64,000 nucleotides of DNA from Clostridia bacterium (GTDB taxonomy: Bacteria > Bacillota > Clostridia > Christensenellales > UBA1242): contig JAEDFV010000002.1 in the NCBI GenBank assembly GCA_016297845.1, forward strand, positions 671 to 64,670. Reading direction: 5' to 3'. A program made the position numbers and the translations under genes. The notes below the pieces were generated by a model. That model was not told where the DNA came from and did no database searches. It was given only the letters and a program-made list of their open reading frames with translations. This document shows, piece by piece, positions 39,539 to 53,608 of this stretch (within the stretch, counting starts at the first letter, position 1; each line of letters starts with the position of its first letter).

Positions 39539-39546
39539 AAATTCAA

Positions 39547-39578
39547 CAAAAAAAACGATATCGATTGATATCGTTTTT
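39547..39578. terminator. Bidirectional terminator (copy 1 of a duplicated terminator)
   Basis: AAAAAACGATATC-GATT-GATATCGTTTTT. The same stem occurs at 48875-48906. Confidence 0.65.
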
Positions 39579-39595
39579 CTTATATTGAATAGCAA

Positions 39596-42500
39596 TTACG
39601 CTTTTTCAACAATCTTGCTTTCATAACTTGAGCCTAAAGCAGTTACGTATGCATCTTTTGTTCCAGCTGGAACATAGATTGTTATGCTCAAAGAATAATC
39701 TAATGGATCAGTCCAAAATGTTGGCGGTGTAGTACCTTTAAAAGTAATTGCTGTAAGTTTTTTGCATCCAAAAATTACCGAACCCCCCATATTAACAACA
39801 CTACTTGGAATTGTAATTGATATCAAACCTGTGCAATTAGCGAATACATCATCACCTATGGTTGTTACACTGTTTGGGATTGTAACTGATGTCAAGCCTG
39901 TGCAATCAGAGAATGCATGACTATCAATACTTGTTACACTACCTGGAATTGTGATTGATATCAAACCTGTGCAACCAGAGAATGCAGAACTACCTATGCT
40001 TGTTACAGTATTTGGGATTTCAATTGATGTCAAGCCTATGCAATCAAAGAATGCATGACTACTAATACTTGTTACACCGCTTCCAATTGTAACTGTTGTC
40101 AAACCTGTGCAATTATCGAATGCATATTCACCAATACTTGTTACACTATCTGGAATCGTAATTGATGTCAAGCCTGTGCAACCTTCAAATGCATAACTAC
40201 CTATGCTTGTTACACTGTTTGGAATCGTAATTGACATCAAGTTCATGCAACTTTCGAATGCACGACCGCCAATACTTGTTACACCGCTTCCAATTGTAAC
40301 TGATGTCAAGCCTGTGCAACCTTCAAATGCACAACTATCAATACTTGTTACACTGTCTGGAATCGTAATTGACATCAAGTCTGTGCAACCCATGAATGCA
40401 TAATTCCCTATACTCGTCAATGAGGAAGGTAAGATAACATTAATAACATCTGAATCTATGCTATAATATACGAGTCTTTGATATTTCCCAGTAAGAGACT
40501 TAACAGTATATGTTGTACCACCAATTTCAAATGTGTTTGGAATAATATAAGACGTTTCCGATGTGGTTACTGATGTTATGGTTAATTCTGTTTCGTATTT
40601 ACTGTATGTTATGTCACTTGAAGTTAAAGTATAGAAACCTTCAAACTCATATGTAATCGTTACTGCATTTGCTGGCATTGTAAATGTATATACGCCTTCT
40701 GAAATTTTTGTTACTTCAACTGCTCCACTGTTAACTTTCAAAGATTTTATTCCATAACCTGTATTTCCAATCGTTGTTATTGTAACAGTATCGCCATCAA
40801 ATGCTTCGGCAACGTCTGTTTCAACAGTTCCATTATCAGCTTCAACTATTGCAATTGAACTCTTAACTCCAAAGTCAACTCTTACTTCTACGTTGTAAGC
40901 AATCATATTGAAAACATATTCGTTTTCATTTGCTGTTTTTGCTGGAATTAATGTTTCATAAATTCCATCGCCGTTTGAATCATAGAGAACTGAAATGGCT
41001 TTGAGAGAATAGCCATCGTCTGGTGCAACTGTGATTGTGATTTCATCATTGTAATTTGCAGTTGTTTTTGAAGCTGTGAATGAACCATTTACGAAGCTTT
41101 CTTCGTCAATTGTTATTGTATATAAAACAAGAGAGTAATTTACAGAAATTGTTACATTTCCTGCTGGCATTGTGAACTTGTTATCTGTTACAACAATTGG
41201 TGTTTCACCGCACATAACTGTGTATGTTGCTTCATAACCAGCTTCTGGATTTGAAGTTATAACAACTTCTTCACCATATGTTGCTGTATCTTGAATTTCG
41301 AAAGTTCCATGGTCAGAAGTTCCTGTTCTTTCAATAGTGTAAACTACTTGTTTGAATGTAACTGTTACTGTAACATCTTCTCCTGGCATTGAGAATGATG
41401 TTTCACCTACTTCAAGAGCAGTTCCGTTAACCAAAATTTGGTCAAGTTCATAACCTTCATTTGGATAAACTGTGACTTCTACAGAATCACCATAGTATCC
41501 TTCTGTTACAGAAAGATCAAAGGTTCCGTTTACTGTTTCTCCTTTTGTAATTTGAACTGTTTTCTTTCGGCATTCATAGTCAAAAGTAACCTCACCTGCT
41601 GGCATTACAAAGTACGCCAAGTCTTCGCCATTAGGACCCTGTTCCATTTGTACGGCTCCCATAAGGTCGCCTCCTGCCCAGTATAAATTTACACCACTAT
41701 CAGAGAACTCATAACCTGGTTGTGGGGTAGCAAGACATATGTATGCTCCTAATCCAAGTTCTACGGCTACACTTTCCTCAACTACGTAGACTTTTGTTCC
41801 TTCCGCAACAGCTATTGGGTTGGCATAAATGTTTGAACCTTCGTAAGAAACTATATTAATTGCGAATCCTTCTTGCACAAATGTTGCAGAAATTGTTACG
41901 TTTCCTGCTGGCATTGTGAATGTTGCAGTATTTCCATCAATAGTTCCTAAAACATTCAAATCTCCGTTTTTGATTGTGAGACTTTCAAGGCCATATGTTG
42001 CATTTGGAGAAATTGTGAGAGTAATTATTTCGCCAACAATTGCTGTTGTTTTGTTTGGAATTACACTTCCATTTTCTGAAGAACTAACTGCAATTAAATA
42101 TTGATTTGCTGTCAATTCAACTGTTACTTCTGAATTTTCTGTAACAACGAACGAATTTCCAGAAATTGCTGTTCCATTAACTTTTATTGCTGAAACAGTA
42201 TATCCCGCATCTGGAGTTACAGTTACTGTAATTGTATCTCCATAATTTGCTGTTGTTTTTGATAAGGTTATTTTTCCATGTTCTGGATTTATTTTTGAAA
42301 CATCATATTCATTTGCCTTAAACTCAACAGTAACTGTTGTGTCTTGAGCTGGCATAGTGAAAGTTGTTCCAGAGATTGTGTTTCCATTTACTTTTATTTT
42401 ACTGAACAAATATCCAGCATCTGGTGTTATTCCAGTTACTTCTATTGTGTCGCCATAGTTTGCAGTTGCTGGAATAGTGAAAGTTCCATGTTCGCTTGCT

Positions 42501-43096
42501 TTTGTCAAAGAATATGTAATCTTTTCAAAAGTTGCGTTAATTGTTATGTTTCCTTTTGGCATATTAAAAGAGTATTTATCTCCTTCTTTAGTTACCAAAA
42601 TTTGGAGGCCTCCATTAAGAACTTCAAGATATGTAGATTCATAACCTTTTGTTGGAACTGGTGTAAGAGTTACTTTTGTACCCCATTCAATTTTATCACC
42701 AGTTGAAATGTTTTGCTCATCAACTTCAATGTCAATTGTTCCGTGTTCAACGTTACCGATATTAACTGCATAGTTTATTTTCTTAAACCTTGCTGTTACA
42801 TTAATGTTTCCTTCTGGCATAACAAATTTATTGTTGATAACTATTTTTCCGTTAACCTTCAAAGAGTCCTGAACATATTCATAACCTTCTCCAGCTTCTG
42901 GAATAATGGTTATTTCTTCCCCAGCAATCGGATCGCCAATAACTTTAACCGAACAACCACTTGGGATTGCTTTGTCGATTGTTATGTTATACGCTGTCAT
43001 ATCTGCTTTTGTACAAGCTGTAAAGACAAATGCAGAGCAAAAAATAAGCGCAAAGCAACATAACACTGAAAGCAACGCTTTTTTGATTTTTGTCAT
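39596..43096 (-). CDS. Large surface lipoprotein, paralog 1: ~11 Ig-like B-repeats (Listeria-Bacteroides/InlB-B type) plus BspA-type leucine-rich repeats
   Basis: Signal peptide with lipobox (VFTAC). Repeated ~70-aa units (..HGT..v.....a.yGdtvtvt.tPd.GY....ikVNG..i.g..FtMP...vtv...F). C-terminal 23-aa LRR_5-type units (IP.SVTSIG..AF.GCTGLTSITI). Confidence 0.85.
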   Translation of the reverse strand: MTKIKKALLSVLCCFALIFCSAFVFTACTKADMTAYNITIDKAIPSGCSVKVIGDPIAGEEITIIPEAGEGYEYVQDSLKVNGKIVINNKFVMPEGNINVTARFKKINYAVNIGNVEHGTIDIEVDEQNISTGDKIEWGTKVTLTPVPTKGYESTYLEVLNGGLQILVTKEGDKYSFNMPKGNITINATFEKITYSLTKASEHGTFTIPATANYGDTIEVTGITPDAGYLFSKIKVNGNTISGTTFTMPAQDTTVTVEFKANEYDVSKINPEHGKITLSKTTANYGDTITVTVTPDAGYTVSAIKVNGTAISGNSFVVTENSEVTVELTANQYLIAVSSSENGSVIPNKTTAIVGEIITLTISPNATYGLESLTIKNGDLNVLGTIDGNTATFTMPAGNVTISATFVQEGFAINIVSYEGSNIYANPIAVAEGTKVYVVEESVAVELGLGAYICLATPQPGYEFSDSGVNLYWAGGDLMGAVQMEQGPNGEDLAYFVMPAGEVTFDYECRKKTVQITKGETVNGTFDLSVTEGYYGDSVEVTVYPNEGYELDQILVNGTALEVGETSFSMPGEDVTVTVTFKQVVYTIERTGTSDHGTFEIQDTATYGEEVVITSNPEAGYEATYTVMCGETPIVVTDNKFTMPAGNVTISVNYSLVLYTITIDEESFVNGSFTASKTTANYNDEITITVAPDDGYSLKAISVLYDSNGDGIYETLIPAKTANENEYVFNMIAYNVEVRVDFGVKSSIAIVEADNGTVETDVAEAFDGDTVTITTIGNTGYGIKSLKVNSGAVEVTKISEGVYTFTMPANAVTITYEFEGFYTLTSSDITYSKYETELTITSVTTSETSYIIPNTFEIGGTTYTVKSLTGKYQRLVYYSIDSDVINVILPSSLTSIGNYAFMGCTDLMSITIPDSVTSIDSCAFEGCTGLTSVTIGSGVTSIGGRAFESCMNLMSITIPNSVTSIGSYAFEGCTGLTSITIPDSVTSIGEYAFDNCTGLTTVTIGSGVTSISSHAFFDCIGLTSIEIPNTVTSIGSSAFSGCTGLISITIPGSVTSIDSHAFSDCTGLTSVTIPNSVTTIGDDVFANCTGLISITIPSSVVNMGGSVIFGCKKLTAITFKGTTPPTFWTDPLDYSLSITIYVPAGTKDAYVTALGSSYESKIVEKA
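40503..43096 (-). repeat. 2.6-kb near-identical direct repeat, copy 1 (partner 50061..52654)
   Basis: Constant offset of 9558 nt. Encoded residues 1-864 are identical except T34K and K42E. Spurious plus-strand ORF translations are also identical between copies. Confidence 0.9.
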
Positions 43097-43276: not shown

Positions 43277-43807
43277 TTATAATTTATCTGTAAAATAGCT
43301 TTGTGGATGATCACAAACTGGGCAAACTTTTGGTGCTGTTTTACCAAAATGGATATGTCCACAGTTCAAGCATTTCCATGCAACAACTTCATCTTTATTG
43401 AAAATTGTTCCATTTCTAACTTCTTCCAAAAGTTTAAGATATCTTTCTTCGTGATGTTTTTCAATCTCACCAATTGCTTCAAATTGATAAGCCAATTTGT
43501 CAAACCCCTCTTCTTTTGCCTCTTTAGCCATGCGAGAATACATATCTGTCCATTCTCCATGTTCTCCAGCAGCAGCATCAATTAAATTTTCTATGGTCAT
43601 TGGAACCATTCCTCCATTGAGTGCCTTGAACCACAATTTTGCATGCTCTTTTTCATTGCTTGCTGTTTCTTCAAAAATATTTGCTATTTGTTCGTAGCCT
43701 TCTTTTCTTGCTTGTGATGCATAAAAATTATACTTATTTCTCGCTTGACTTTCGCCTGCAAACGCTTCTTTTAAATTTTTCTCTGTTTTTGTTCCTTTAA
43801 GTTCCAT
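43277..43807 (-). CDS. rbr: Rubrerythrin
   Basis: N-terminal ferritin-like diiron domain (E..A...[20 protein letters not shown]) and C-terminal rubredoxin CLNCGH...CPVCDHP. Confidence 0.9.
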
Positions 43808-43818
43808 ATTTTCTCCTT

Positions 43819-45222
43819 TTATTTTATTTCAGATGAACGATCAAAATACTTTGTATGCAACAACATTTCACTTGTGTCGCTTAGCGGTGTTTTCAAAAAT
43901 TCGCTGTATATTTTTTTTACTAGTGGATTTTGATGGGCACACCTAGTTTCCAACCCTTCATCTTTTAAGTATAGAGCATTTATTCGTTTTTTCCTAACAA
44001 AATCATCAATTTTTTTTATTTTCGGCTGTCCACCACCACCTGAACAACCACCGGGACAAGTCATAACCTCAATAAAATCAAAATCTGTTTTTCCTGATTT
44101 TATCATTTTTATTAAATCATGAACATTCCTAAGTCCGTTGACAACAGCAACTTTTACGTTCGCTCCACACACATTAATTTGATCTTCTTTAATGCCATTA
44201 AGTCCACGCACTTTTTCAAGTTTCAAGAAATTATCTTTTGGCTCTTTACCAGTTAACATATAATATGATTCACGCAAGACAGATTCAGTAACACCACCGG
44301 TTGCACCGAAAATAATTCCTCCGCCAGAACCTCTACAAATATCATCAAATTCGCCATCGTATAAATTGCCATAAGGAATATTTTGTCGTCTTATCATATG
44401 TGCAAGTTCTCGCACTGTTAAAACATAATCGACATCATGAATGCCTGGCATATAACCATAATCGTCAGAAATGGAAAGTTCTTCTCGTGTTATTTCATAT
44501 TTTTTTGATGTGCACGGCGTGATAACCACGTGAACAATGTTTTCAGGTTTTATCTTTTTTTGCTTTGCAAAATAAGTTTTAATGATTGCACCTTGAATTG
44601 AAATCGGACTTTTTACTGTTGACAAATTTGGAATAAGTTCTGGCTCAAACATTTCAACAAATCTAACCCAAGAAGGACAACAGGACGAAAACATTGGCAA
44701 CACTCCCCCATGTTTAATTCGATGAATAAGTTCACTTGCTTCTTCCATAATTGTAACATCTGCCCCAAATGTCACATCAAAAACATAATCAAAACCTAAC
44801 ATACGAAGAGCAGTAATCATTTTCCCTTCATCAAACATCCCCGAATCATAACCAAATTCTTCAGCAAGAGACACTCGAACAGCAGGTGCTGTTGACACAA
44901 CTAAAACTTTTTCATAATTGCTGAGTGCATCTAAAACCTCTCTGTAGCTTGACTTTTCGCGAAGCGCATTAAATCCGCACACAAGAGTACATTGACCACA
45001 CCCAATACAAGCATTCGGTTGACCTGGTTTATTTACATTGTAATTTGAGCTAAGTCCGGTTACATGATTGCACATTTCTCTGCATTGTCCACATTTTATG
45101 CATTTTGTTACATCACGAAAAAGGCAAGGGCTGTTCTCATCTACAAACACCCTTGCATCTTCTCCAAGTTTTTTCTTAATAACTTCTTTTAACTTCTCTT
45201 GTTTTAATTTTTTTAAATTCAT
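43819..45222 (-). CDS. hydA: [FeFe]-hydrogenase catalytic subunit (2x[4Fe-4S] + H-cluster domain)
   Basis: Ferredoxin motifs [11 protein letters not shown] and [12 protein letters not shown]-cluster motifs [16 protein letters not shown] and [16 protein letters not shown]. Confidence 0.85.
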
Positions 45223-45227
45223 TTCCC

Positions 45228-45986
45228 CTATCCAATTTCCTTTGTTTTGTCTTGTTTTTTTACCTGCTTAAGTTCTTTAACTTCTGCCTTAATTTCTTTT
45301 TTAGAATACATTTTTCTAAGCAGTCTTTTTAAGTTGACTTTATTCTCTGTTCCAACTAAAAGTCTAAATATATTCTGCCTATGCATGATCCAAGTTAAAC
45401 AAAACATTATAAAAAGTAAAATTGTGATAACTAAATTACTGCTTTCACCCGTGTACTTTAATGCTTCAATGAATGTAACAATTGAAATGAAAATAAACGA
45501 AGCAACGGCACCATAATCAAATATATAAAGATATAAAAAGCAAAATGCAAAACAAATGGCAACACAAATTGGTGATGAAACAAGAAAAACTCCGAGCATA
45601 CATGCTACGCCTTTCCCACCTTTAAACTTGTAAATTACTGGGAAATTGTGCCCAAGGATAACAGAAAGCCCGCCAATGTATAGCCCCATCATTGCGGTTG
45701 ATGATGAATGTAATCCCAATATATCAATATAACTGCCTACTTCGAGCCCACCAAACAAGAAGAAACCCAAAAGCGCAGACACTGTTCCTTTTAACGCATC
45801 AAGGACAAGCGTTAAAAGCCCAGCGCCAAAACCGTATGCACGAAGCATGTTCATTGTCCCAGGATTTCCACTTCCTTGCTTTGTTATGTCACTTTTCAAG
45901 ACTTTGCGCGAAAGAATTCTTGCAAAACTTATGTTTCCCAAGAAATATGAAACTATAATAACAACAACATATCTCCACCATTCCAT
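45228..45986 (-). CDS. plsY: Glycerol-3-phosphate acyltransferase PlsY (with C-terminal extension)
   Basis: YFLGNISFARIL and GSGNPGTMN motifs, multi-TM. Lys-rich tail of about 50 aa. Confidence 0.85.
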   Translation of the reverse strand: MEWWRYVVVIIVSYFLGNISFARILSRKVLKSDITKQGSGNPGTMNMLRAYGFGAGLLTLVLDALKGTVSALLGFFLFGGLEVGSYIDILGLHSSSTAMMGLYIGGLSVILGHNFPVIYKFKGGKGVACMLGVFLVSSPICVAICFAFCFLYLYIFDYGAVASFIFISIVTFIEALKYTGESSNLVITILLFIMFCLTWIMHRQNIFRLLVGTENKVNLKRLLRKMYSKKEIKAEVKELKQVKKQDKTKEIG

Positions 45987-45990
45987 TATG

Positions 45991-47322
45991 CTATTGATCT
46001 TTCTCCTTTCTGTTTTTGAAAATTAATTTTATAGGTGTACCTTCAAAATTAATTGCTTCACGTAGTCTGTTTTCCAAAAATCTTTGATATGAGAAATGGA
46101 CAAGTGCTCCATCATTGACAAATATAACAAATGTAGGAGGACAAACTTCCGCTTGTGTTGCATAAAGGATTTTCAGTTTTTTGCCCTTTTTTGTAGGCGG
46201 TTCTTGTGCCAAAATTGCTTTTTGGATAACTTCATTTAAAACCCCAGTTGAAACTCGTCGAGAATTATTGCCGTAAATTTCCAAAACAGTCGGCATAATT
46301 CTCTCAAACCTTTTCCCAGTTAAAGCAGAAACAAAAATAGGTTTAAAATAATTCATAAAGGAAAGTTTGTCCGAAAGCATTTCTTTGTATTCGTTAATTG
46401 TATGACCGTCTTTTTCAACAAGGTCCCATTTGTTCATTACAATTAAATTAGGTTTCCCTTCTTCGTGGACATAGCCAGCAATTCTGACATCTTGTTCGCT
46501 TATTTCTTGACTTGCGTCAAAAACGATAAGTACAATGTCCGCGCGTTTGATTGCTTCCATTGCACGAATGACACTGTATCCCTCAACGCTTTCTCGTTCA
46601 ACACTGCGTTGACGACGCATGCCAGCAGTGTCAATCAAGACATAATCTTTCCCTGCATATCTAAAAGGCGTGTCAATTGCGTCACGTGTTGTTCCTGCGA
46701 CATTTGAAACAACAACACGTTCTTCACCCAAAATTCGGTTAACAATTGAACTCTTGCCGGCATTAGGTCGACCGACAACTGCGATTTTAATAACACCATC
46801 ATCTTTTTCTGTGATATCTTGACCTTTGAATGCAGGAGAACTTATAATTTCGTCCAAAACTTCTCCGAGACCTTTACTTTGCTCGCAAGAAATTGGGAAT
46901 GGTTCGCCAAGTCCAAGCGAATAGAAATCATAGGTGTTTTCAACTTCGAACCTGTCTAATTTGTTTACAACAAGGATAACTTTTTTGTTGGTTTTCCTGA
47001 GTAACGCTCCAACTTCTTCGTCCGCTGGAGTAAGCCCATCTCTGCCGTCAACCATAAAAATTATTACATCAGCAAGGTCAATTGCAATTTGTGCTTGAGA
47101 ACGAATTGTTTTTTGAAAAACATCAGTGCTTTTGCTGTCAAGACCGCCTGTGTCAACGAGTGTGAAAACATGCCCGCACCATTCTGCGTCAGAATAAATT
47201 CTGTCACGCGTTACGCCTGGCATATCATCAATTATACTGATTCTTTTTCCGCAAATCTTGTTGAAAAACGTGCTCTTGCCCGTGTTAGGTCTTCCAACAA
47301 TTGCAACTAATGGTTTTTTCAT
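45991..47322 (-). CDS. der: Ribosome-associated GTPase Der/EngA
   Basis: Two tandem G-domains (GRPNTGKST, GRPNAGKSS; DTGG/DTAG; NKLD/NKWD) plus a KH-like C-terminus. Confidence 0.95.
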   Translation of the reverse strand: MKKPLVAIVGRPNTGKSTFFNKICGKRISIIDDMPGVTRDRIYSDAEWCGHVFTLVDTGGLDSKSTDVFQKTIRSQAQIAIDLADVIIFMVDGRDGLTPADEEVGALLRKTNKKVILVVNKLDRFEVENTYDFYSLGLGEPFPISCEQSKGLGEVLDEIISSPAFKGQDITEKDDGVIKIAVVGRPNAGKSSIVNRILGEERVVVSNVAGTTRDAIDTPFRYAGKDYVLIDTAGMRRQRSVERESVEGYSVIRAMEAIKRADIVLIVFDASQEISEQDVRIAGYVHEEGKPNLIVMNKWDLVEKDGHTINEYKEMLSDKLSFMNYFKPIFVSALTGKRFERIMPTVLEIYGNNSRRVSTGVLNEVIQKAILAQEPPTKKGKKLKILYATQAEVCPPTFVIFVNDGALVHFSYQRFLENRLREAINFEGTPIKLIFKNRKEKDQ

Positions 47323-47375
47323 CTCTTTTCCTAGTTTAAATTTATCATAATCTAATTTATTTTCAAAACAAAATG

Positions 47376-48489
47376 CTATTTGCTTGCACTTTTCTTAAGA
47401 TAGTCGCTTATAAATGGTTCAATGTCACCGTCCATAACGCCAAATATGTCGCTGGTTTCATAGCCAGTTCGATGGTCCTTGACCATTGTGTATGGGTGGA
47501 AAACATATGAACGAATTTGACTTCCCCACTCAATTTTTTTGAGTTCTCCACGAATGTCGTTCAGTTTCGCAAGTTCTTCCTCCTCTCGCTTTTCAACAAG
47601 TTTTGAAAGCAACATTTTCATGCATGTCTCACGATTTTGAATTTGACTGCGCTCCGTTTGACACGAAACAACAAACCCAGTTGGAATGTGAGTTATTCGA
47701 ATTGCACTTTCAGTTTTGTTAATGTGCTGACCGCCAGCGCCACTGCTTCGATAGGTGTCAATTTTGAGGTCTTCGCTTCGAATAACAATGTCTTCACTCT
47801 CCGAAATTTCTGGCATAACTTCGACACTTGCAAAACTTGTGTGACGGCGCGCGTTTGAATCAAATGGAGAAATTCGAACAAGCCTGTGGACACCTTTTTC
47901 GCATTTCAAGAATCCATAGGCGTTGTCGCCTTCAACGGTGAAAGTTATGGATTTTATTCCCGCTTCGTCTCCGTCAAGTACACTTAATACACTCGTCTTG
48001 AACCCTTCCTTTTCGGCATATCGCGCGTACATTCTATAGAGCATGTTCGCCCAATCTTGCGCTTCGGTTCCGCCCGCCCCAGCATGAATTGTCAATATCG
48101 CATTGTTTGAGTCATATTTTCCCGAAAGAAGTGTTTCAAGTTTTGTTTTTTCAATGTCTGAAGAAAACGATTTTATCTCGCGCAAAAGTTCGTCAAAAAA
48201 TTCGCGCCCTTCATCATCTCCAGAAATTTCAGCAATTTCCAAAAGTGCGTTTATGTCCGCAAGTTTTTTTTCGAAAGACTTTACTTTTCCAATTCGCGCC
48301 TCAAGTTTTTTCAGTTCTTTTCCAACCTTGAGCGCTTTTTCGCTGTCTTGCCAAAACCCGTCAGACTCCTGCTCCAATTTTAAACTTGAAATTTTGTTCC
48401 GCGTTTCTTCCGTGTCAAAGACACTCCTTTATGAAGGAGAATTCCTTTTCTAGTTCTTTGACTTTTATTTTTTCATTTTCAACTATCAT
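47376..48489 (-). CDS. prfB: Peptide chain release factor 2, with programmed +1 frameshift
   Basis: ORF0 is 48489..48415 (MIVENEKIKVKELEKEFSFIKECL*). After the +1 shift at CTT TGA C, reading continues DTEETRNKISSLKLEQESDGFWQD... to 47376. SPF and GGQ motifs (RISPFD, SGAGGQHINK) are present. Confidence 0.93.
48414..48429 (-). promoter_or_regulatory. RF2 autoregulatory +1 frameshift site
   Basis: Coding strand AAG GAG TGT CTT TGA C: an internal SD-like AAGGAG 3 nt before the slippery CTT, then UGA followed by C. Confidence 0.9.
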
Positions 48490-48496
48490 ACGAAAG

Positions 48497-48525
48497 ACTA
48501 TACATTTTCTGCTCAAGTTTGTCAA
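48497..48525 (-). promoter_or_regulatory. prfB promoter (predicts a leaderless mRNA)
   Basis: Minus strand TTGACA (48525-48520), N17, TATAGT (48502-48497). Only 7 nt (CTTTCGT, no SD) separate the -10 from the ATG at 48489. Confidence 0.55.
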
Positions 48526-48556
48526 TCTTTTTCGCTCTTGAATTTTTCGCTATATT

Positions 48557-48860
48557 TTTGTAAAATAAATCAGTCTTATTTGTAAAAAATACATATTTTT
48601 GTAAAATAACACGCGTTTTGTAAAATATACAAAATATTTTTGTAAAAAAGACCTTATTTTGTAAAATACCCTTTATTTTGTAAAGAAATCATAATATTTG
48701 TAAAATATTTAGGTTTTTGTAAAATATTCTTTGTTTTTTGTAAAATAATTCATTTTTGTAAAATTATAAAGACTTTTGTAAAGAACTTTTTATATTTTGT
48801 AAAATATGTACGGATTGACTTTTGTAAAATATTAAATATTTTTGTAAAATATTTTACAAA
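48557..48860 (+). repeat. Array of 15 phased direct TTTGTAAA(A/G)(T/A) boxes with unrelated spacers, ending in a 20-bp palindrome
   Basis: Box starts: 48557, 48579, 48598, 48617, 48639, 48658, 48677, 48697, 48716, 48737, 48755, 48775, 48796, 48821, 48841. The inverted copy at 48851-48860 gives TTTGTAAAATATTTTACAAA. Confidence 0.9.
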
Positions 48861-48874
48861 ATCCCCCACTCCAT

Positions 48875-48906
48875 AAAAAAAACGATATCTTTCGATATCG
48901 TTTTTC
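48875..48906. terminator. Bidirectional terminator (copy 2 of the duplicated terminator)
   Basis: AAAAAAAACGATATC-TTTC-GATATCGTTTTT. Confidence 0.65.
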
Positions 48907-48922
48907 TTATATTGAATAGCAA

Positions 48923-51900
48923 TTACGCTTTTTCAACAATCTTACTTGCATAGCTTGAACCTAAAGCAGTTACGTATGCACTCTTTGTTCCAGTAGGAAC
49001 ATAGATTGTTGTAAGTGAGGTACAATTATAGAATACATCATTTCCAAATGTTGGAGGTGTAGTACCTTCAAAAGTTATTGATGTTAAGCTTGTATCACTA
49101 AATGCAACATCACTTATGCTTGTTACACTATCTGGGATTGTAATTGATGTCAAGTTTGTGCAACCAGAAAATACGGAATTTTCAATACTTGTTATGCCAT
49201 TTCCAATTGTTACTGATGTCAAGCTTTTGCAACCAGAGAAGGCGCTAGCACCTATAGTTGTTACACTATTTGGGATTGTAATTGATGTCAAACCTGTGTT
49301 AAGGAATGCCTCTTCTCCTATAATTGTTACGCCATTTGGAATTGTGATTGATGTCAAGCCTGTGCAACCAAAGAATGCAGAATCGGCGATTCCTATAACA
49401 TCGCTAGGAATTGCTAGGGTTCCAGTAGGTTCTGTTGTTTTATATCCTAAAAGCCATCTCTTTCCATCTGCTCGTGAGATATATAAATTTCCGACAGCAG
49501 CATTATTGTAGAAATACGTATTAGTGAATGCAGAATTACTGATACTTGTTACACTACTTGGTATTGTTATTGATGCCAAGTTTGTGCAGTCTAGGAACGC
49601 AGATATTTCTATACTTTTTACACCGTTTGGTATTGCAATAGACGTCAAACCTGTGCACTGAAATGCCCAACCCCCTATACTTGTTACACTGCTTGGTATT
49701 GTTATTGATGTTAAGCCTGTGTGACCAGAGAATGCATAATAACCAATACTTGTTACATTGTTTGGAATTATTGTGTTTTTGCAGCCTGCAACCAATTTAT
49801 TAGTAGAAATTTCAATTATACAATTTGCTCCATCGCCAGATGTATAGGTTGTATTTCCTTCTTCTACTACTATTGATTTCAAAGATGAACAATTATTAAA
49901 TGAACTACCATCAATACTTGTTACACTATTTGGAATTGTGATTGATGTTAGGTCTGTGCAATTTTTAAATGCGCCATATATAGCTGTTAATGTAGAAGGT
50001 AAGACAACATTAACAACATCTAAATCTATACCACCACTAAATGTTCCTTCAAGTTTTTTGACAGTATATGTTGTACCACCAATTTCAAATGTGTTTGGAA
50101 TAATATAAGACGTTTCCGATGTGGTTACTGATGTTATGGTTAATTCTGTTTCGTATTTACTGTATGTTATGTCACTTGAAGTTAAAGTATAGAAACCTTC
50201 AAACTCATATGTAATCGTTACTGCATTTGCTGGCATTGTAAATGTATATACGCCTTCTGAAATTTTTGTTACTTCAACTGCTCCACTGTTAACTTTCAAA
50301 GATTTTATTCCATAACCTGTATTTCCAATCGTTGTTATTGTAACAGTATCGCCATCAAATGCTTCGGCAACGTCTGTTTCAACAGTTCCATTATCAGCTT
50401 CAACTATTGCAATTGAACTCTTAACTCCAAAGTCAACTCTTACTTCTACGTTGTAAGCAATCATATTGAAAACATATTCGTTTTCATTTGCTGTTTTTGC
50501 TGGAATTAATGTTTCATAAATTCCATCGCCGTTTGAATCATAGAGAACTGAAATGGCTTTGAGAGAATAGCCATCGTCTGGTGCAACTGTGATTGTGATT
50601 TCATCATTGTAATTTGCAGTTGTTTTTGAAGCTGTGAATGAACCATTTACGAAGCTTTCTTCGTCAATTGTTATTGTATATAAAACAAGAGAGTAATTTA
50701 CAGAAATTGTTACATTTCCTGCTGGCATTGTGAACTTGTTATCTGTTACAACAATTGGTGTTTCACCGCACATAACTGTGTATGTTGCTTCATAACCAGC
50801 TTCTGGATTTGAAGTTATAACAACTTCTTCACCATATGTTGCTGTATCTTGAATTTCGAAAGTTCCATGGTCAGAAGTTCCTGTTCTTTCAATAGTGTAA
50901 ACTACTTGTTTGAATGTAACTGTTACTGTAACATCTTCTCCTGGCATTGAGAATGATGTTTCACCTACTTCAAGAGCAGTTCCGTTAACCAAAATTTGGT
51001 CAAGTTCATAACCTTCATTTGGATAAACTGTGACTTCTACAGAATCACCATAGTATCCTTCTGTTACAGAAAGATCAAAGGTTCCGTTTACTGTTTCTCC
51101 TTTTGTAATTTGAACTGTTTTCTTTCGGCATTCATAGTCAAAAGTAACCTCACCTGCTGGCATTACAAAGTACGCCAAGTCTTCGCCATTAGGACCCTGT
51201 TCCATTTGTACGGCTCCCATAAGGTCGCCTCCTGCCCAGTATAAATTTACACCACTATCAGAGAACTCATAACCTGGTTGTGGGGTAGCAAGACATATGT
51301 ATGCTCCTAATCCAAGTTCTACGGCTACACTTTCCTCAACTACGTAGACTTTTGTTCCTTCCGCAACAGCTATTGGGTTGGCATAAATGTTTGAACCTTC
51401 GTAAGAAACTATATTAATTGCGAATCCTTCTTGCACAAATGTTGCAGAAATTGTTACGTTTCCTGCTGGCATTGTGAATGTTGCAGTATTTCCATCAATA
51501 GTTCCTAAAACATTCAAATCTCCGTTTTTGATTGTGAGACTTTCAAGGCCATATGTTGCATTTGGAGAAATTGTGAGAGTAATTATTTCGCCAACAATTG
51601 CTGTTGTTTTGTTTGGAATTACACTTCCATTTTCTGAAGAACTAACTGCAATTAAATATTGATTTGCTGTCAATTCAACTGTTACTTCTGAATTTTCTGT
51701 AACAACGAACGAATTTCCAGAAATTGCTGTTCCATTAACTTTTATTGCTGAAACAGTATATCCCGCATCTGGAGTTACAGTTACTGTAATTGTATCTCCA
51801 TAATTTGCTGTTGTTTTTGATAAGGTTATTTTTCCATGTTCTGGATTTATTTTTGAAACATCATATTCATTTGCCTTAAACTCAACAGTAACTGTTGTGT

Positions 51901-52654
51901 CTTGAGCTGGCATAGTGAAAGTTGTTCCAGAGATTGTGTTTCCATTTACTTTTATTTTACTGAACAAATATCCAGCATCTGGTGTTATTCCAGTTACTTC
52001 TATTGTGTCGCCATAGTTTGCAGTTGCTGGAATAGTGAAAGTTCCATGTTCGCTTGCTTTTGTCAAAGAATATGTAATCTTTTCAAAAGTTGCGTTAATT
52101 GTTATGTTTCCTTTTGGCATATTAAAAGAGTATTTATCTCCTTCTTTAGTTACCAAAATTTGGAGGCCTCCATTAAGAACTTCAAGATATGTAGATTCAT
52201 AACCTTTTGTTGGAACTGGTGTAAGAGTTACTTTTGTACCCCATTCAATTTTATCACCAGTTGAAATGTTTTGCTCATCAACTTCAATGTCAATTGTTCC
52301 GTGTTCAACGTTACCGATATTAACTGCATAGTTTATTTTCTTAAACCTTGCTGTTACATTAATGTTTCCTTCTGGCATAACAAATTTATTGTTGATAACT
52401 ATTTTTCCGTTAACCTTCAAAGAGTCCTGAACATATTCATAACCTTCTCCAGCTTCTGGAATAATGGTTATTTCTTCCCCAGCAATCGGATCGCCAATAA
52501 CTTTAACCGAACAACCACTTGGGATTGCTTCGTCGATTGTTATGTTATACGCTTTCATATCTGCTTTTGTACAAGCTGTAAAGACAAATGCAGAGCAAAA
52601 GATAAGCGCAAAGCAACATAACACTGAAAGCAATGCTTTTTTGATTTTTGTCAT
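48923..52654 (-). CDS. Large surface lipoprotein, paralog 2: same B-repeat N-terminal 864 aa, divergent and longer BspA-type LRR region
   Basis: Identical signal/lipobox and B-repeats. After ..GGTTYTVK the sequence diverges (KLEGTFSGG.. vs SLTGKYQRL..). The LRR_5-type repeats are irregular. The conserved C-terminal end is ..YVPTGTKSAYVTALGSSYASKIVEKA. Confidence 0.85.
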   Translation of the reverse strand: MTKIKKALLSVLCCFALIFCSAFVFTACTKADMKAYNITIDEAIPSGCSVKVIGDPIAGEEITIIPEAGEGYEYVQDSLKVNGKIVINNKFVMPEGNINVTARFKKINYAVNIGNVEHGTIDIEVDEQNISTGDKIEWGTKVTLTPVPTKGYESTYLEVLNGGLQILVTKEGDKYSFNMPKGNITINATFEKITYSLTKASEHGTFTIPATANYGDTIEVTGITPDAGYLFSKIKVNGNTISGTTFTMPAQDTTVTVEFKANEYDVSKINPEHGKITLSKTTANYGDTITVTVTPDAGYTVSAIKVNGTAISGNSFVVTENSEVTVELTANQYLIAVSSSENGSVIPNKTTAIVGEIITLTISPNATYGLESLTIKNGDLNVLGTIDGNTATFTMPAGNVTISATFVQEGFAINIVSYEGSNIYANPIAVAEGTKVYVVEESVAVELGLGAYICLATPQPGYEFSDSGVNLYWAGGDLMGAVQMEQGPNGEDLAYFVMPAGEVTFDYECRKKTVQITKGETVNGTFDLSVTEGYYGDSVEVTVYPNEGYELDQILVNGTALEVGETSFSMPGEDVTVTVTFKQVVYTIERTGTSDHGTFEIQDTATYGEEVVITSNPEAGYEATYTVMCGETPIVVTDNKFTMPAGNVTISVNYSLVLYTITIDEESFVNGSFTASKTTANYNDEITITVAPDDGYSLKAISVLYDSNGDGIYETLIPAKTANENEYVFNMIAYNVEVRVDFGVKSSIAIVEADNGTVETDVAEAFDGDTVTITTIGNTGYGIKSLKVNSGAVEVTKISEGVYTFTMPANAVTITYEFEGFYTLTSSDITYSKYETELTITSVTTSETSYIIPNTFEIGGTTYTVKKLEGTFSGGIDLDVVNVVLPSTLTAIYGAFKNCTDLTSITIPNSVTSIDGSSFNNCSSLKSIVVEEGNTTYTSGDGANCIIEISTNKLVAGCKNTIIPNNVTSIGYYAFSGHTGLTSITIPSSVTSIGGWAFQCTGLTSIAIPNGVKSIEISAFLDCTNLASITIPSSVTSISNSAFTNTYFYNNAAVGNLYISRADGKRWLLGYKTTEPTGTLAIPSDVIGIADSAFFGCTGLTSITIPNGVTIIGEEAFLNTGLTSITIPNSVTTIGASAFSGCKSLTSVTIGNGITSIENSVFSGCTNLTSITIPDSVTSISDVAFSDTSLTSITFEGTTPPTFGNDVFYNCTSLTTIYVPTGTKSAYVTALGSSYASKIVEKA
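50061..52654 (-). repeat. 2.6-kb near-identical direct repeat, copy 2 (partner 40503..43096)
   Basis: See copy 1. I found four substitutions, all in the last ~130 bp next to the start codon. Confidence 0.9.
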
Positions 52655-52960: not shown

Positions 52961-53608
52961 ATGTCTTTTTACATCAACAACAATAACAACTGCCGTCCCG
53001 GAGGGTTGTGTGGAAACCCTACAAACGGCTTATGTGAAAAAGCACTTATCGAAGTTACAAAAGTTTTCGACGCATGCAGACAACAAATTGTTGAAAGCGG
53101 GCTTGCACTTACTCTTTCTGATTTCGACCCTGCCAACCCAACACTGCCTCTTACATTTATTTCTGCCACAACAAGTTTGACGGACCCTGCCACAATAAGC
53201 GATGTGGTTGTTGACAGGATAGAACAACGACCTAATTTTGCAAATGTCTCCGGAACCGTAACAATACCAATTATTGTGCAATATCGTGACGCAAACGGAG
53301 TGCTTGGAACTGCGAAATCCACCATCACAGTCCCAGAAAACGTAATTTTATTTGTTCCTCAACCATCGGTAACCCCTCTCGACATTTCCGTGTTTGCAAC
53401 ATTTACTTCGACAATAGGTTCAATCAATGAGGAAGGCACTGTCGCAACAGTAACTGGTTGCCTTAACATTATAATCAAAGTTACAGCACAAGTTGACATT
53501 CTTGTTCCATCTTATGGCTATCCAGTTATTCCACCTTGTCAACAAGCAGAAACGCAAGTTTGTCCTGGCCCAGGCGAACTGCCACTTTTCCCAACAGCAT
53601 TGGGTTAA
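52961..53608 (+). CDS. Hypothetical Cys-containing protein (215 aa)
   Basis: GGAGG RBS 5 nt upstream of ATG 52961 (the track ORF start at 52826 has no RBS). The N-terminus is MSFYINNNNNCRPGGLCGNPTNGLCEKALIEVTKVFDACRQ. Strong terminator follows. Confidence 0.55.
   Translation: MSFYINNNNNCRPGGLCGNPTNGLCEKALIEVTKVFDACRQQIVESGLALTLSDFDPANPTLPLTFISATTSLTDPATISDVVVDRIEQRPNFANVSGTVTIPIIVQYRDANGVLGTAKSTITVPENVILFVPQPSVTPLDISVFATFTSTIGSINEEGTVATVTGCLNIIIKVTAQVDILVPSYGYPVIPPCQQAETQVCPGPGELPLFPTALG

What the first reader, a model, noticed from the sequence alone, without database searches (positions are those of the whole stretch)
40503..43096. 2.6-kb direct repeat with a perfectly identical core shared by two surface-protein genes that bracket essential genes
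40503-43096 and 50061-52654 align at a constant offset of 9558 nt with no indels. The encoded 864 residues differ only at T34K and K42E. The four nucleotide differences I could find all lie in the last ~130 bp next to the start codon. Identity stops abruptly after codon ~864 (..TYTVK). Upstream of the RBS the two loci are unrelated. A long perfect core with a sharp edge on one side and sprinkled substitutions on the other looks like recent gene conversion rather than ancient duplication. The repeats are direct and flank rbr, hydA, plsY, der and prfB. Reciprocal recombination would delete essential genes, so only conversion or duplication outcomes should survive.
Basis: seen in the sequence. 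Interest (0 to 1): 0.6.

Follow-up and report, generated by a model that had tools for sequence, protein, structure and literature searches.

The report
Recent gene conversion between two adhesin genes
Two neighbouring surface-protein genes of a tiny-genome gut bacterium carry the same 2.6-kb front part because one gene recently overwrote the other by gene conversion, a well-known way in which bacteria reshuffle surface proteins, so the finding is real but of a familiar kind.

Summary
Window 40503-43096 and 50061-52654 align at offset 9558 with no indel and four mismatches, and the longest perfect run is 2470 nt. Both copies are the 5' 2.6 kb of two minus-strand genes for BspA-type lipoproteins. 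Each has a lipobox, about ten Flg_new_2 repeats and an LRR_5 tip. The genes bracket rbr, hydA, plsY, der and prfB.

The same two-paralog synteny occurs in four other genomes, down to 82% nt identity. There the paralogs are diverged. In a conspecific strain that is 98.5% identical in the bracketed genes, they share only the first 91 nt. The duplication is therefore old and the homogenisation in this lineage is recent.

Haplotype comparison points to direction. Gene B matches a conspecific B gene on both sides of the block end, whereas gene A switches haplotype there. B is the likely donor and A the recipient.

Two of the four differences (+21, +54) are older alleles in the signal-peptide segment that all paralogs share, so they lie outside the tract.

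The perfect core could partly be a by-product of short-read assembly. An independent k=31 contig rules out large differences between the copies.

This is a new member of a known kind, of modest interest.

The parts
39596..43096 (-). Gene A (1166 aa). BspA-type lipoprotein: signal peptide with lipobox (..FVFTAC28), about 10 Flg_new_2 repeats, and an LRR_5 tip (LRR_A). Inferred recipient of the conversion, and a chimera.
   Evidence: ORF. Pfam PF18998 at 2.8e-72 and PF13306 at 1.4e-70. Haplotype switch at the block end.
48923..52654 (-). Gene B (1243 aa). Paralogous BspA-type lipoprotein with a different LRR tip (LRR_B). Inferred donor.
   Evidence: Same haplotype as the B gene of conspecific L017 on both sides of the block end, at 95-100% per 100 nt.
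40503..43096 (-). Repeat copy A: 2594 nt, covering codons 1 to 865 of gene A.
   Evidence: An independent Logan contig, L020 (SRR12268554), is 100% identical from hydA through rbr and the whole block. It ends exactly at 40503.
50061..52654 (-). Repeat copy B: 2594 nt.
40503..42972 (-). Perfect core of 2470 nt. Partner is 50061-52530.
43006..43096 (-). Signal-peptide and lipobox segment (gene nt 1-91). It is conserved between the A and B genes in every genome examined. It holds the position-specific differences at +21 and +54. The 5' edge of the conversion tract lies between +55 and +92.
   Evidence: Alignment of 15 5' ends. In L016 the A and B genes share only these 91 nt, with one mismatch at +54.
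39596..40502 (-). LRR_A cassette plus conserved C-terminal tail. It is not shared with gene B (about 70% nt identity). Its closest relative is the LRR of the B-position gene in L012.
48923..50060 (-). LRR_B cassette plus conserved C-terminal tail.
39546..39620 (-). Last codons and hairpin terminator of gene A. It is nearly identical to 48873-48947 downstream of gene B, and so forms a third homology anchor.
43277..48489 (-). Bracketed genes: rbr (43277-43807), hydA (43819-45222), plsY (45228-45986), der (45991-47322) and prfB (47376-48377, plus the frameshift ORF0 up to 48489).
   Evidence: Pfam hits. hydA, plsY, der and prfB are single copy in the assembly.

Best explanation
The two copies are the N-terminal 'stalk' regions of two old paralogous genes for BspA-type surface lipoproteins. 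The genes have sat on either side of rbr-hydA-plsY-der-prfB since before this genus diversified.

In the lineage of this genome, a RecA-type non-reciprocal homologous recombination (gene conversion) recently copied about 2.5 kb of gene B into gene A. Gene B lies upstream of prfB and gene A lies downstream of rbr. The tract began inside the 91-nt signal-peptide segment that all paralogs share. It ended at the junction between the stalk and the LRR region, where similarity between the paralogs falls to about 70%.

The result is two full-length, separately translated lipoproteins with the same ten-repeat stalk and different LRR tips.

Shown here: the old synteny, the divergence of the paralogs in relatives, the near-identity in this genome, and the haplotype continuity of B against the switch in A. 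Inferred: the RecA mechanism, the exact history, the role of the stalk and tip, and the idea that crossover products are lethal so that only conversion outcomes persist.
For: - Repeat: 2594 nt with four mismatches and no indel, and only two copies in the genome.
- Old synteny: the order B-prfB-der-plsY-hydA-rbr-A is found in G007, L013 and L015/L016. Identity in the bracketed genes is 82%, 88% and 98.5%.
- Diverged paralogs elsewhere: about 39% aa identity in G007, with three short patches of 87-94% nt identity. In L013 the segments are 81-93% identical. In conspecific L016 only nt 1-91 are shared and the rest is about 67% identical.
- Block type: the block resembles B-position genes. L012-B scores 88-100% per window and L017-B scores 95-99%. 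It does not resemble the A-position genes of conspecifics L016, L017 and L022, which score 58% or less.
- Direction: gene B matches L017-B continuously across the block end. Gene A changes there from L017-B-like to L012-B-like sequence.
- 5' edge: the A copy keeps the A-position allele T at +54 and G at +21, as in the A genes of L016, L017, L019 and L022.
- Age: there are two differences in about 2500 nt of tract (0.08%), against 0.56-1.5% divergence between conspecific strains in the bracketed genes.
- Assembly support: an independent k=31 Logan contig (L020) runs unbroken from hydA and rbr through the whole A block and stops exactly at the block end.
- Machinery: recA and mutS are present.
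Against: - No reads could be examined. A short-read assembler that traverses a simple loop reuses one collapsed repeat edge. The 'perfect' 2470-nt core may therefore be perfect by construction, and a few isolated differences could be hidden.
- The two remaining in-tract differences (+101, +124) lie within 24 nt of each other near the 5' edge. That is unlikely for random post-conversion mutations. It fits patchy heteroduplex repair or assembly effects better.
- The assignment of B as donor rests on two comparison haplotypes (L017-B, which is partial, and L012-B).
- The F-flank Logan contig of the same run (L028) stops about 145 nt short of the gene B start. The junction of the upstream flank with copy B is therefore seen only in the MAG contig.
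Confidence: 0.72

Rival explanations
1. Assembly effect. The two genes are real and similar, but the perfect core comes from collapsing two slightly different copies into one graph edge that is then used twice. At the extreme, one of the genes does not carry this block at all.
For: - The genome is a 28-contig MAG.
- All four retained differences lie within about 140 nt of the graph branch point at the RBS. That is where an assembler cannot collapse them.
- No other assembly in the protein collection holds either full-length protein (one contig each).
- Reads were not available.
Against: - The Logan k=31 contig L020 is unbroken through the whole block and ends exactly at the branch to the two LRR regions. 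Any long or dense A/B difference would have broken it.
- It is 100.000% identical to the MAG over 4617 nt. That would be unlikely if many variant sites had been resolved independently by two assemblers.
- Both 5' ends carry the position-specific alleles expected for an A gene and a B gene.
- Both 3' junctions match real haplotypes in other strains.
- Every relative has two paralogs at these positions.
- This rival can therefore hide a handful of SNPs. It cannot remove the event.
Confidence: 0.15
2. Import rather than intragenomic conversion. Gene A acquired a B-type allele (block plus LRR_A, as in L012-B) from another strain by homologous recombination. The signal-peptide segment and the shared 3' tail and terminator served as anchors.
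For: - The LRR_A of gene A is closest to the B-position gene of L012, at 94% just past the block.
- The A gene of L014 also carries an L012-B-like N-terminus.
- Several block windows are 100% identical to L012-B although that genome is only about 95% identical in the bracketed genes. Exchange between strains therefore does occur.
Against: - An imported L012-like block would differ from the resident B block by about 4%, and by 9-15% in its last 200 nt. The observed figure is 0.08%.
- The last 200 nt of the block in gene A are L017-B-like, not L012-B-like.
- Import may explain the state of gene A before the conversion. It does not explain the present identity.
Confidence: 0.08
3. Old duplication whose N-terminal part is kept identical by purifying selection, or a very recent duplication of the gene.
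For: None beyond the identity itself.
Against: - Synonymous sites are identical too.
- The same paralogs are strongly diverged in conspecific and congeneric genomes.
- The two loci and their unrelated upstream regions are conserved across the genus. The second locus is therefore not new.
Confidence: 0.02

Closest known systems
Helicobacter pylori babA/babB adhesin paralogs (gene conversion between full-length outer-membrane adhesin genes at separate loci). From my own knowledge, not looked up here.
   Same: Two expressed paralogs at fixed loci have conserved 5' and 3' ends and a divergent ligand-binding part. RecA-type non-reciprocal recombination replaces part of one gene with the other, giving chimeras and strain-to-strain mosaics.
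   Different: The protein family is different: BspA-type LRR lipoproteins of a Gram-positive-lineage bacterium. Here the converted part is the stalk, not the binding module. No experimental evidence of switching exists.
Concerted evolution of duplicated bacterial genes by gene conversion, for example tufA/tufB of Salmonella and rRNA operons. From my own knowledge.
   Same: Paralogs are kept identical or nearly so within a genome while orthologs diverge between genomes. The process depends on RecA.
   Different: In tuf and rrn the homogenisation is continual and covers the whole gene. Here it is sporadic: conspecific strains have fully diverged paralogs. It is also partial, covering the stalk only.
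Programmed antigenic-variation cassette systems (Neisseria pilE/pilS, Borrelia vlsE, Mycoplasma genitalium mgpB/MgPar). From my own knowledge.
   Same: Segmental, non-reciprocal recombination into a surface-protein gene, with mosaic alleles among strains.
   Different: Those systems use silent, truncated donor cassettes and switch at high frequency. Here both genes are complete, each with its own RBS, start codon and terminator. No within-population switching has been shown.
BspA of Tannerella forsythia and related LRR_5 surface proteins; the InlB B-repeat of Listeria internalins.
   Same: Pfam LRR_5 (PF13306) and Flg_new_2 (PF18998, 'divergent InlB B-repeat') both score far above their cut-offs.
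   Different: The architecture differs: an N-terminal lipid anchor, about ten B-repeat domains, then a C-terminal LRR. No binding or adhesion function has been tested.

Membership tests
BspA-type leucine-rich repeat proteins (Pfam LRR_5, PF13306) | Match to the LRR_5 profile above the gathering score | tested here: met
   gene A scores 235.5 bits and gene B 253.5 bits, against a cut-off of 27.7.
InlB B-repeat / Flg_new_2 domain proteins (PF18998) | Repeated matches to the Flg_new_2 profile | tested here: met
   239 and 238 bits, with 8 stretches each. Nine to ten repeat-end motifs of the type F.MP..NVT....F lie between residues 91 and 818.
Bacterial lipoproteins | N-terminal signal peptide ending in a lipobox with an invariant Cys | tested here: inconclusive
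   The sequence reads MTKIKKALLSVLCCFALIFCSAFVFTAC28: a positive n-region, a hydrophobic core and ..FTAC. It is conserved in all paralogs. No dedicated predictor was run.
Gene conversion between paralogs | The paralogs existed and were diverged before the event | tested here: met
   Same synteny, with diverged paralogs, in G007, L013 and L016.
Gene conversion between paralogs | A tract of near-identity with sharp edges inside otherwise diverged genes, grouping by genome rather than by locus | tested here: met
   The block in gene A is 99.9% identical to the resident gene B, but at most 58% per window to the A genes of conspecific strains.
Gene conversion between paralogs | Non-reciprocal: the donor is unchanged and the recipient is chimeric | tested here: met
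   Gene B is collinear with L017-B across the block end. Gene A switches haplotype there. This rests on two comparison haplotypes.
Gene conversion between paralogs | Homologous-recombination machinery present | tested here: met
   RecA at 452.6 bits on C23. MutS domain V at 290.7 bits on C25.
Gene conversion between paralogs | Both copies physically present and identical in the DNA molecules (reads) | not testable with these tools
Only indirect support is available, from the Logan contig L020.
Programmed antigenic-variation cassette systems | Silent, promoterless or truncated donor cassettes | tested here: not met
   Both genes are full length, each with an RBS, an ATG, a signal peptide and a terminator.
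Programmed antigenic-variation cassette systems | High-frequency switching within one population | not testable with these tools
   No reads were available.

The most novel reading that the evidence does not exclude
The two loci may form a standing two-slot cassette system for adhesin diversification in reduced-genome gut Christensenellales (UBA1242-like). Three conserved anchors would guide the exchanges: the 91-nt signal-peptide segment, the stalk/LRR junction, and the roughly 75-nt 3' tail with its terminator. Recurrent exchange of stalk and LRR modules would occur between the slots and between strains. The essential genes between the direct repeats would make every deleting crossover lethal, so the pair stays locked in place. 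The A gene of L014 and the LRR of L012-B suggest independent exchanges.
Probability: 0.25. Interest if true: 0.5.

Novelty: new member of a known kind. Interest (0 to 1): 0.3.

Why it matters
The case shows, with polarity and rough dating, that a bacterium of about 0.75 Mb with very few genes still reshuffles its largest surface proteins by recombination. Those genes are by far the most variable part of an otherwise 98.5-99.4% identical chromosomal segment. This points to the BspA-type lipoproteins as the likely interface with the host or a partner organism in an uncultured, probably dependent, gut lineage. It is also a practical warning. Long identical repeats inside short-read MAG contigs can be identical by construction, so they need read-level checks before fine detail such as a 'perfect core' is interpreted.

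Tried and rejected
- **Exact-protein look-ups of genes A and B.** Searches failed because the machine did not answer. One search shows each protein exists on only one contig, the window's own, so they were not repeated.
- **Look-up of the flanking gene.** It failed with the 260-aa ORF start and succeeded with the 215-aa start.
- **L017 as a graph cycle.** I considered that the 9526-nt contig L017 was a graph cycle, which would have been evidence of an identical repeat or a circle in another sample. I rejected this because its A 5' end is the diverged A type, about 70% identical to the block.
- **The four differences as a pure k-mer artefact.** I partly rejected this. The differences at +21 and +54 match locus-specific alleles in other strains.
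- **Metagenome scan with the block protein.** It gave only one close relative, L036, which is identical to L014.
- **Scenario with an L012-like whole-gene copy.** In this scenario the whole of gene A was copied from an L012-like B allele, and the LRR of gene B was later replaced. It is disfavoured because the last 200 nt of the block are L017-B-like (97%) rather than L012-B-like (88%).
- **Other mechanisms.** I saw no sign of a site-specific recombinase, an inverted-repeat shufflon or a diversity-generating retroelement at the tract edges. No dedicated search was run.
- **Promoter scan.** It was uninformative: 52 hits against 46 expected by chance.
Full report
**Observation**

Window 40503-43096 and 50061-52654 align at a constant offset of 9558 nt with no indel. 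There are four mismatches, at 42973, 42996, 43043 and 43076. Flanking 100-nt windows fall at once to 18-39% identity. The longest perfect run is 2470 nt.

In gene coordinates the differences are +21 and +54 (both synonymous), +101 (T34K) and +124 (K42E). The shared protein prefix is 866 residues. With a 1-nt indel the similarity continues through the RBS. The whole 754-kb, 28-contig assembly contains only these two copies.

**What the copies are**

Both lie on the minus strand. They are the 5' 2.6 kb of two long ORFs: gene A (39596-43096, 1166 aa) and gene B (48923-52654, 1243 aa). Pfam gives Flg_new_2 ('divergent InlB B-repeat', PF18998, about 239 bits) and BspA-type LRR_5 (PF13306, 235 and 253 bits) for both.

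The N-terminus, MTKIKKALLSVLCCFALIFCSAFVFTAC, looks like a lipoprotein signal. About ten repeat units fill residues 30-818. The LRR tips that follow are only about 70% identical at nucleotide level. The last codons and the hairpin terminator are again nearly identical.

Between the genes, on the same strand, lie rbr, hydA, plsY, der and prfB. hydA, plsY, der and prfB are single copy in the assembly.

The organism is a reduced-genome gut Christensenellales. NCBI names relatives' proteins that way. Such lineages under 1 Mb are described as family UBA1242 in PMC12306168. I did not test membership of that family.

**The arrangement is old; the identity is new**

A congeneric genome, G007, has the same order: paralog, prfB, der, plsY, hydA, rbr, paralog. 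So do L013 (GCA_964315865.1) and L015/L016 (GCA_051883475.1). Their bracketed genes are 82%, 88% and 98.5% identical to this window.

- In G007 the paralogs are about 39% identical as proteins, with three short patches of 87-94% nt identity.
- In L013 the matching segments are 81-93% identical.
- In the conspecific L016 the paralogs share only nt 1-91, with one mismatch at +54. The rest is about 67% identical.

The second locus therefore long predates this species. The 2.6-kb identity is specific to this lineage.

The tract has two differences in about 2500 nt (0.08%). Conspecific strains differ by 0.56-1.5% in the bracketed genes. The event is therefore younger than the splits among the sampled strains.

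**Direction**

Taken window by window, the block resembles B-position genes. L012-B scores 88-100%, and L017-B scores 95-99% over the part available. It does not resemble the A-position genes of conspecifics L016, L017 and L022, which score 58% or less.

At the 3' edge, gene B is collinear with L017-B on both sides, at 95-100% per 100 nt across the boundary. Gene A switches there. Its last block segment is L017-B-like (97%), and its LRR is L012-B-like (94%). L012-B itself is only 85-91% identical to the last 200 nt of the block. Gene B is therefore the intact donor haplotype and gene A is the chimera.

At the 5' edge, the first 91 nt (signal peptide and lipobox) are conserved between A and B in every genome. 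The A copy here keeps the A-locus alleles, G at +21 and T at +54, as in the A genes of L016, L017, L019 and L022. The B copy has the B-locus alleles. The tract therefore started between +55 and +92.

The other two, +101 (unique to B) and +124 (unique to A), are unexplained. Their closeness to each other and to the edge suggests patchy heteroduplex repair rather than random later mutation.

**Mechanism**

The most likely mechanism is RecA-dependent non-reciprocal recombination, for example repair of a break in gene A templated by gene B 9.6 kb away. recA and mutS are present.

Before the event, gene A may already have carried a B-like body. The A gene of conspecific L014 does. That would have supplied homology along the stalk. 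The tract ends where homology collapses, at the stalk/LRR junction.

A crossover between the direct repeats would delete der, plsY and prfB, which are single copy and essential in model bacteria (general knowledge). This is a plausible reason why only conversion products are seen and why the arrangement is stable across the genus. This last point is inference.

**Assembly caveat**

A short-read assembler can traverse the simple loop R-M-R by using one collapsed R edge twice. That makes the core identical by construction and hides isolated SNPs.

Several observations argue against a larger artefact:

- The independent Logan k=31 contig L020 from SRR12268554 is 100% identical to the window over 4617 nt. 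It runs unbroken from hydA and rbr through the whole A block and ends exactly at 40503, the branch to the two LRRs.
- Other Logan contigs of that run (L028, L034, L035) are consistent with the window (L034 is 100% identical over 3355 nt). L028 stops about 145 nt short of the gene B start.
- A long or dense difference between the copies would have broken L020.

I conclude that near-identity is robust and that literal perfection is unverified.

**Wider pattern**

These genes are the hypervariable part of an otherwise 98.5-99.4% identical region. There are signs of other exchanges:

- L014's A gene has an L012-B-type N-terminus, including the signal segment.
- L012's B gene carries an LRR close to this genome's LRR_A.
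- Several block windows are 100% identical to L012-B although that genome is about 95% identical in the bracketed genes.

This fits the earlier first-reader note on a cassette-like mosaic (e1-2819471). It also allows, without proving, a standing two-slot exchange system.

**Comparison with known systems and verdict**

Functionally this is the well-known phenomenon of gene conversion between paralogous surface or adhesin genes. The closest analogy is H. pylori babA/babB. It is also a form of sporadic concerted evolution.

It is not a member of the silent-cassette antigenic-variation systems, because both genes are complete and independently translatable.

Literature searches found no paper linking bacterial BspA-type proteins with gene conversion (the two hits concern Entamoeba).

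It is a new member of a known kind, of modest interest.

Noticed in passing
window 39546-39620 and 48873-48947: The last codons (..KIVEKA), the stop codon and a 12-17-bp hairpin terminator are nearly identical downstream of both paralogs. This gives a third conserved anchor besides the signal segment and the stalk.
   Followed up: partly
L012:10001-13432 (GCA_964319045.1, B-position gene): This B-position gene, from a genome about 95% identical in the bracketed genes, carries an LRR region 88-94% identical to this window's LRR_A. It also has several 100-nt stalk windows at 100% identity. Both suggest exchange of modules between strains and between loci.
   Followed up: partly
L014:1120-4674 (ERZ1758117, A-position gene): An A-position gene in a conspecific strain has a B-type (L012-B-like) N-terminus, including the signal-peptide alleles. 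This is probably an independent transfer from B into the A slot.
   Followed up: partly
window 41446-41896 approx. (block nt 1200-1650, residues about 400-550): This atypical, longer repeat unit (..EGFAINIVSYEG..YECRKK) is found only in this genome and in L012-B. It is absent or unalignable in the other A and B genes (10-28% per window).
   Followed up: no
L011:13087-17211 (G007, A-position gene): The congeneric A paralog has an extra C-terminal domain of about 190 aa after the LRR and the conserved tail motif. A near-identical database protein is annotated with PF13385. This window's genes lack it.
   Followed up: no
L029-L033 (Logan contigs of several runs): Many k=31 contigs coming from the upstream 215-aa gene end 17-50 nt into gene B. 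This is consistent with the conserved signal-peptide segment acting as a repeat in those strains too.
   Followed up: no
window 48378-48922: The intergenic region between gene B and prfB is very AT-rich (GC 0.23) and holds many TTGTAA/TAAAAT-like boxes. Alignment gaps between strains fall here.
   Followed up: no
window 52961-53608: The 215-aa protein divergent from gene B has no Pfam match and is Cys/Pro-rich at both ends. It is 100% conserved at protein level in at least 20 contigs from many samples.
   Followed up: no
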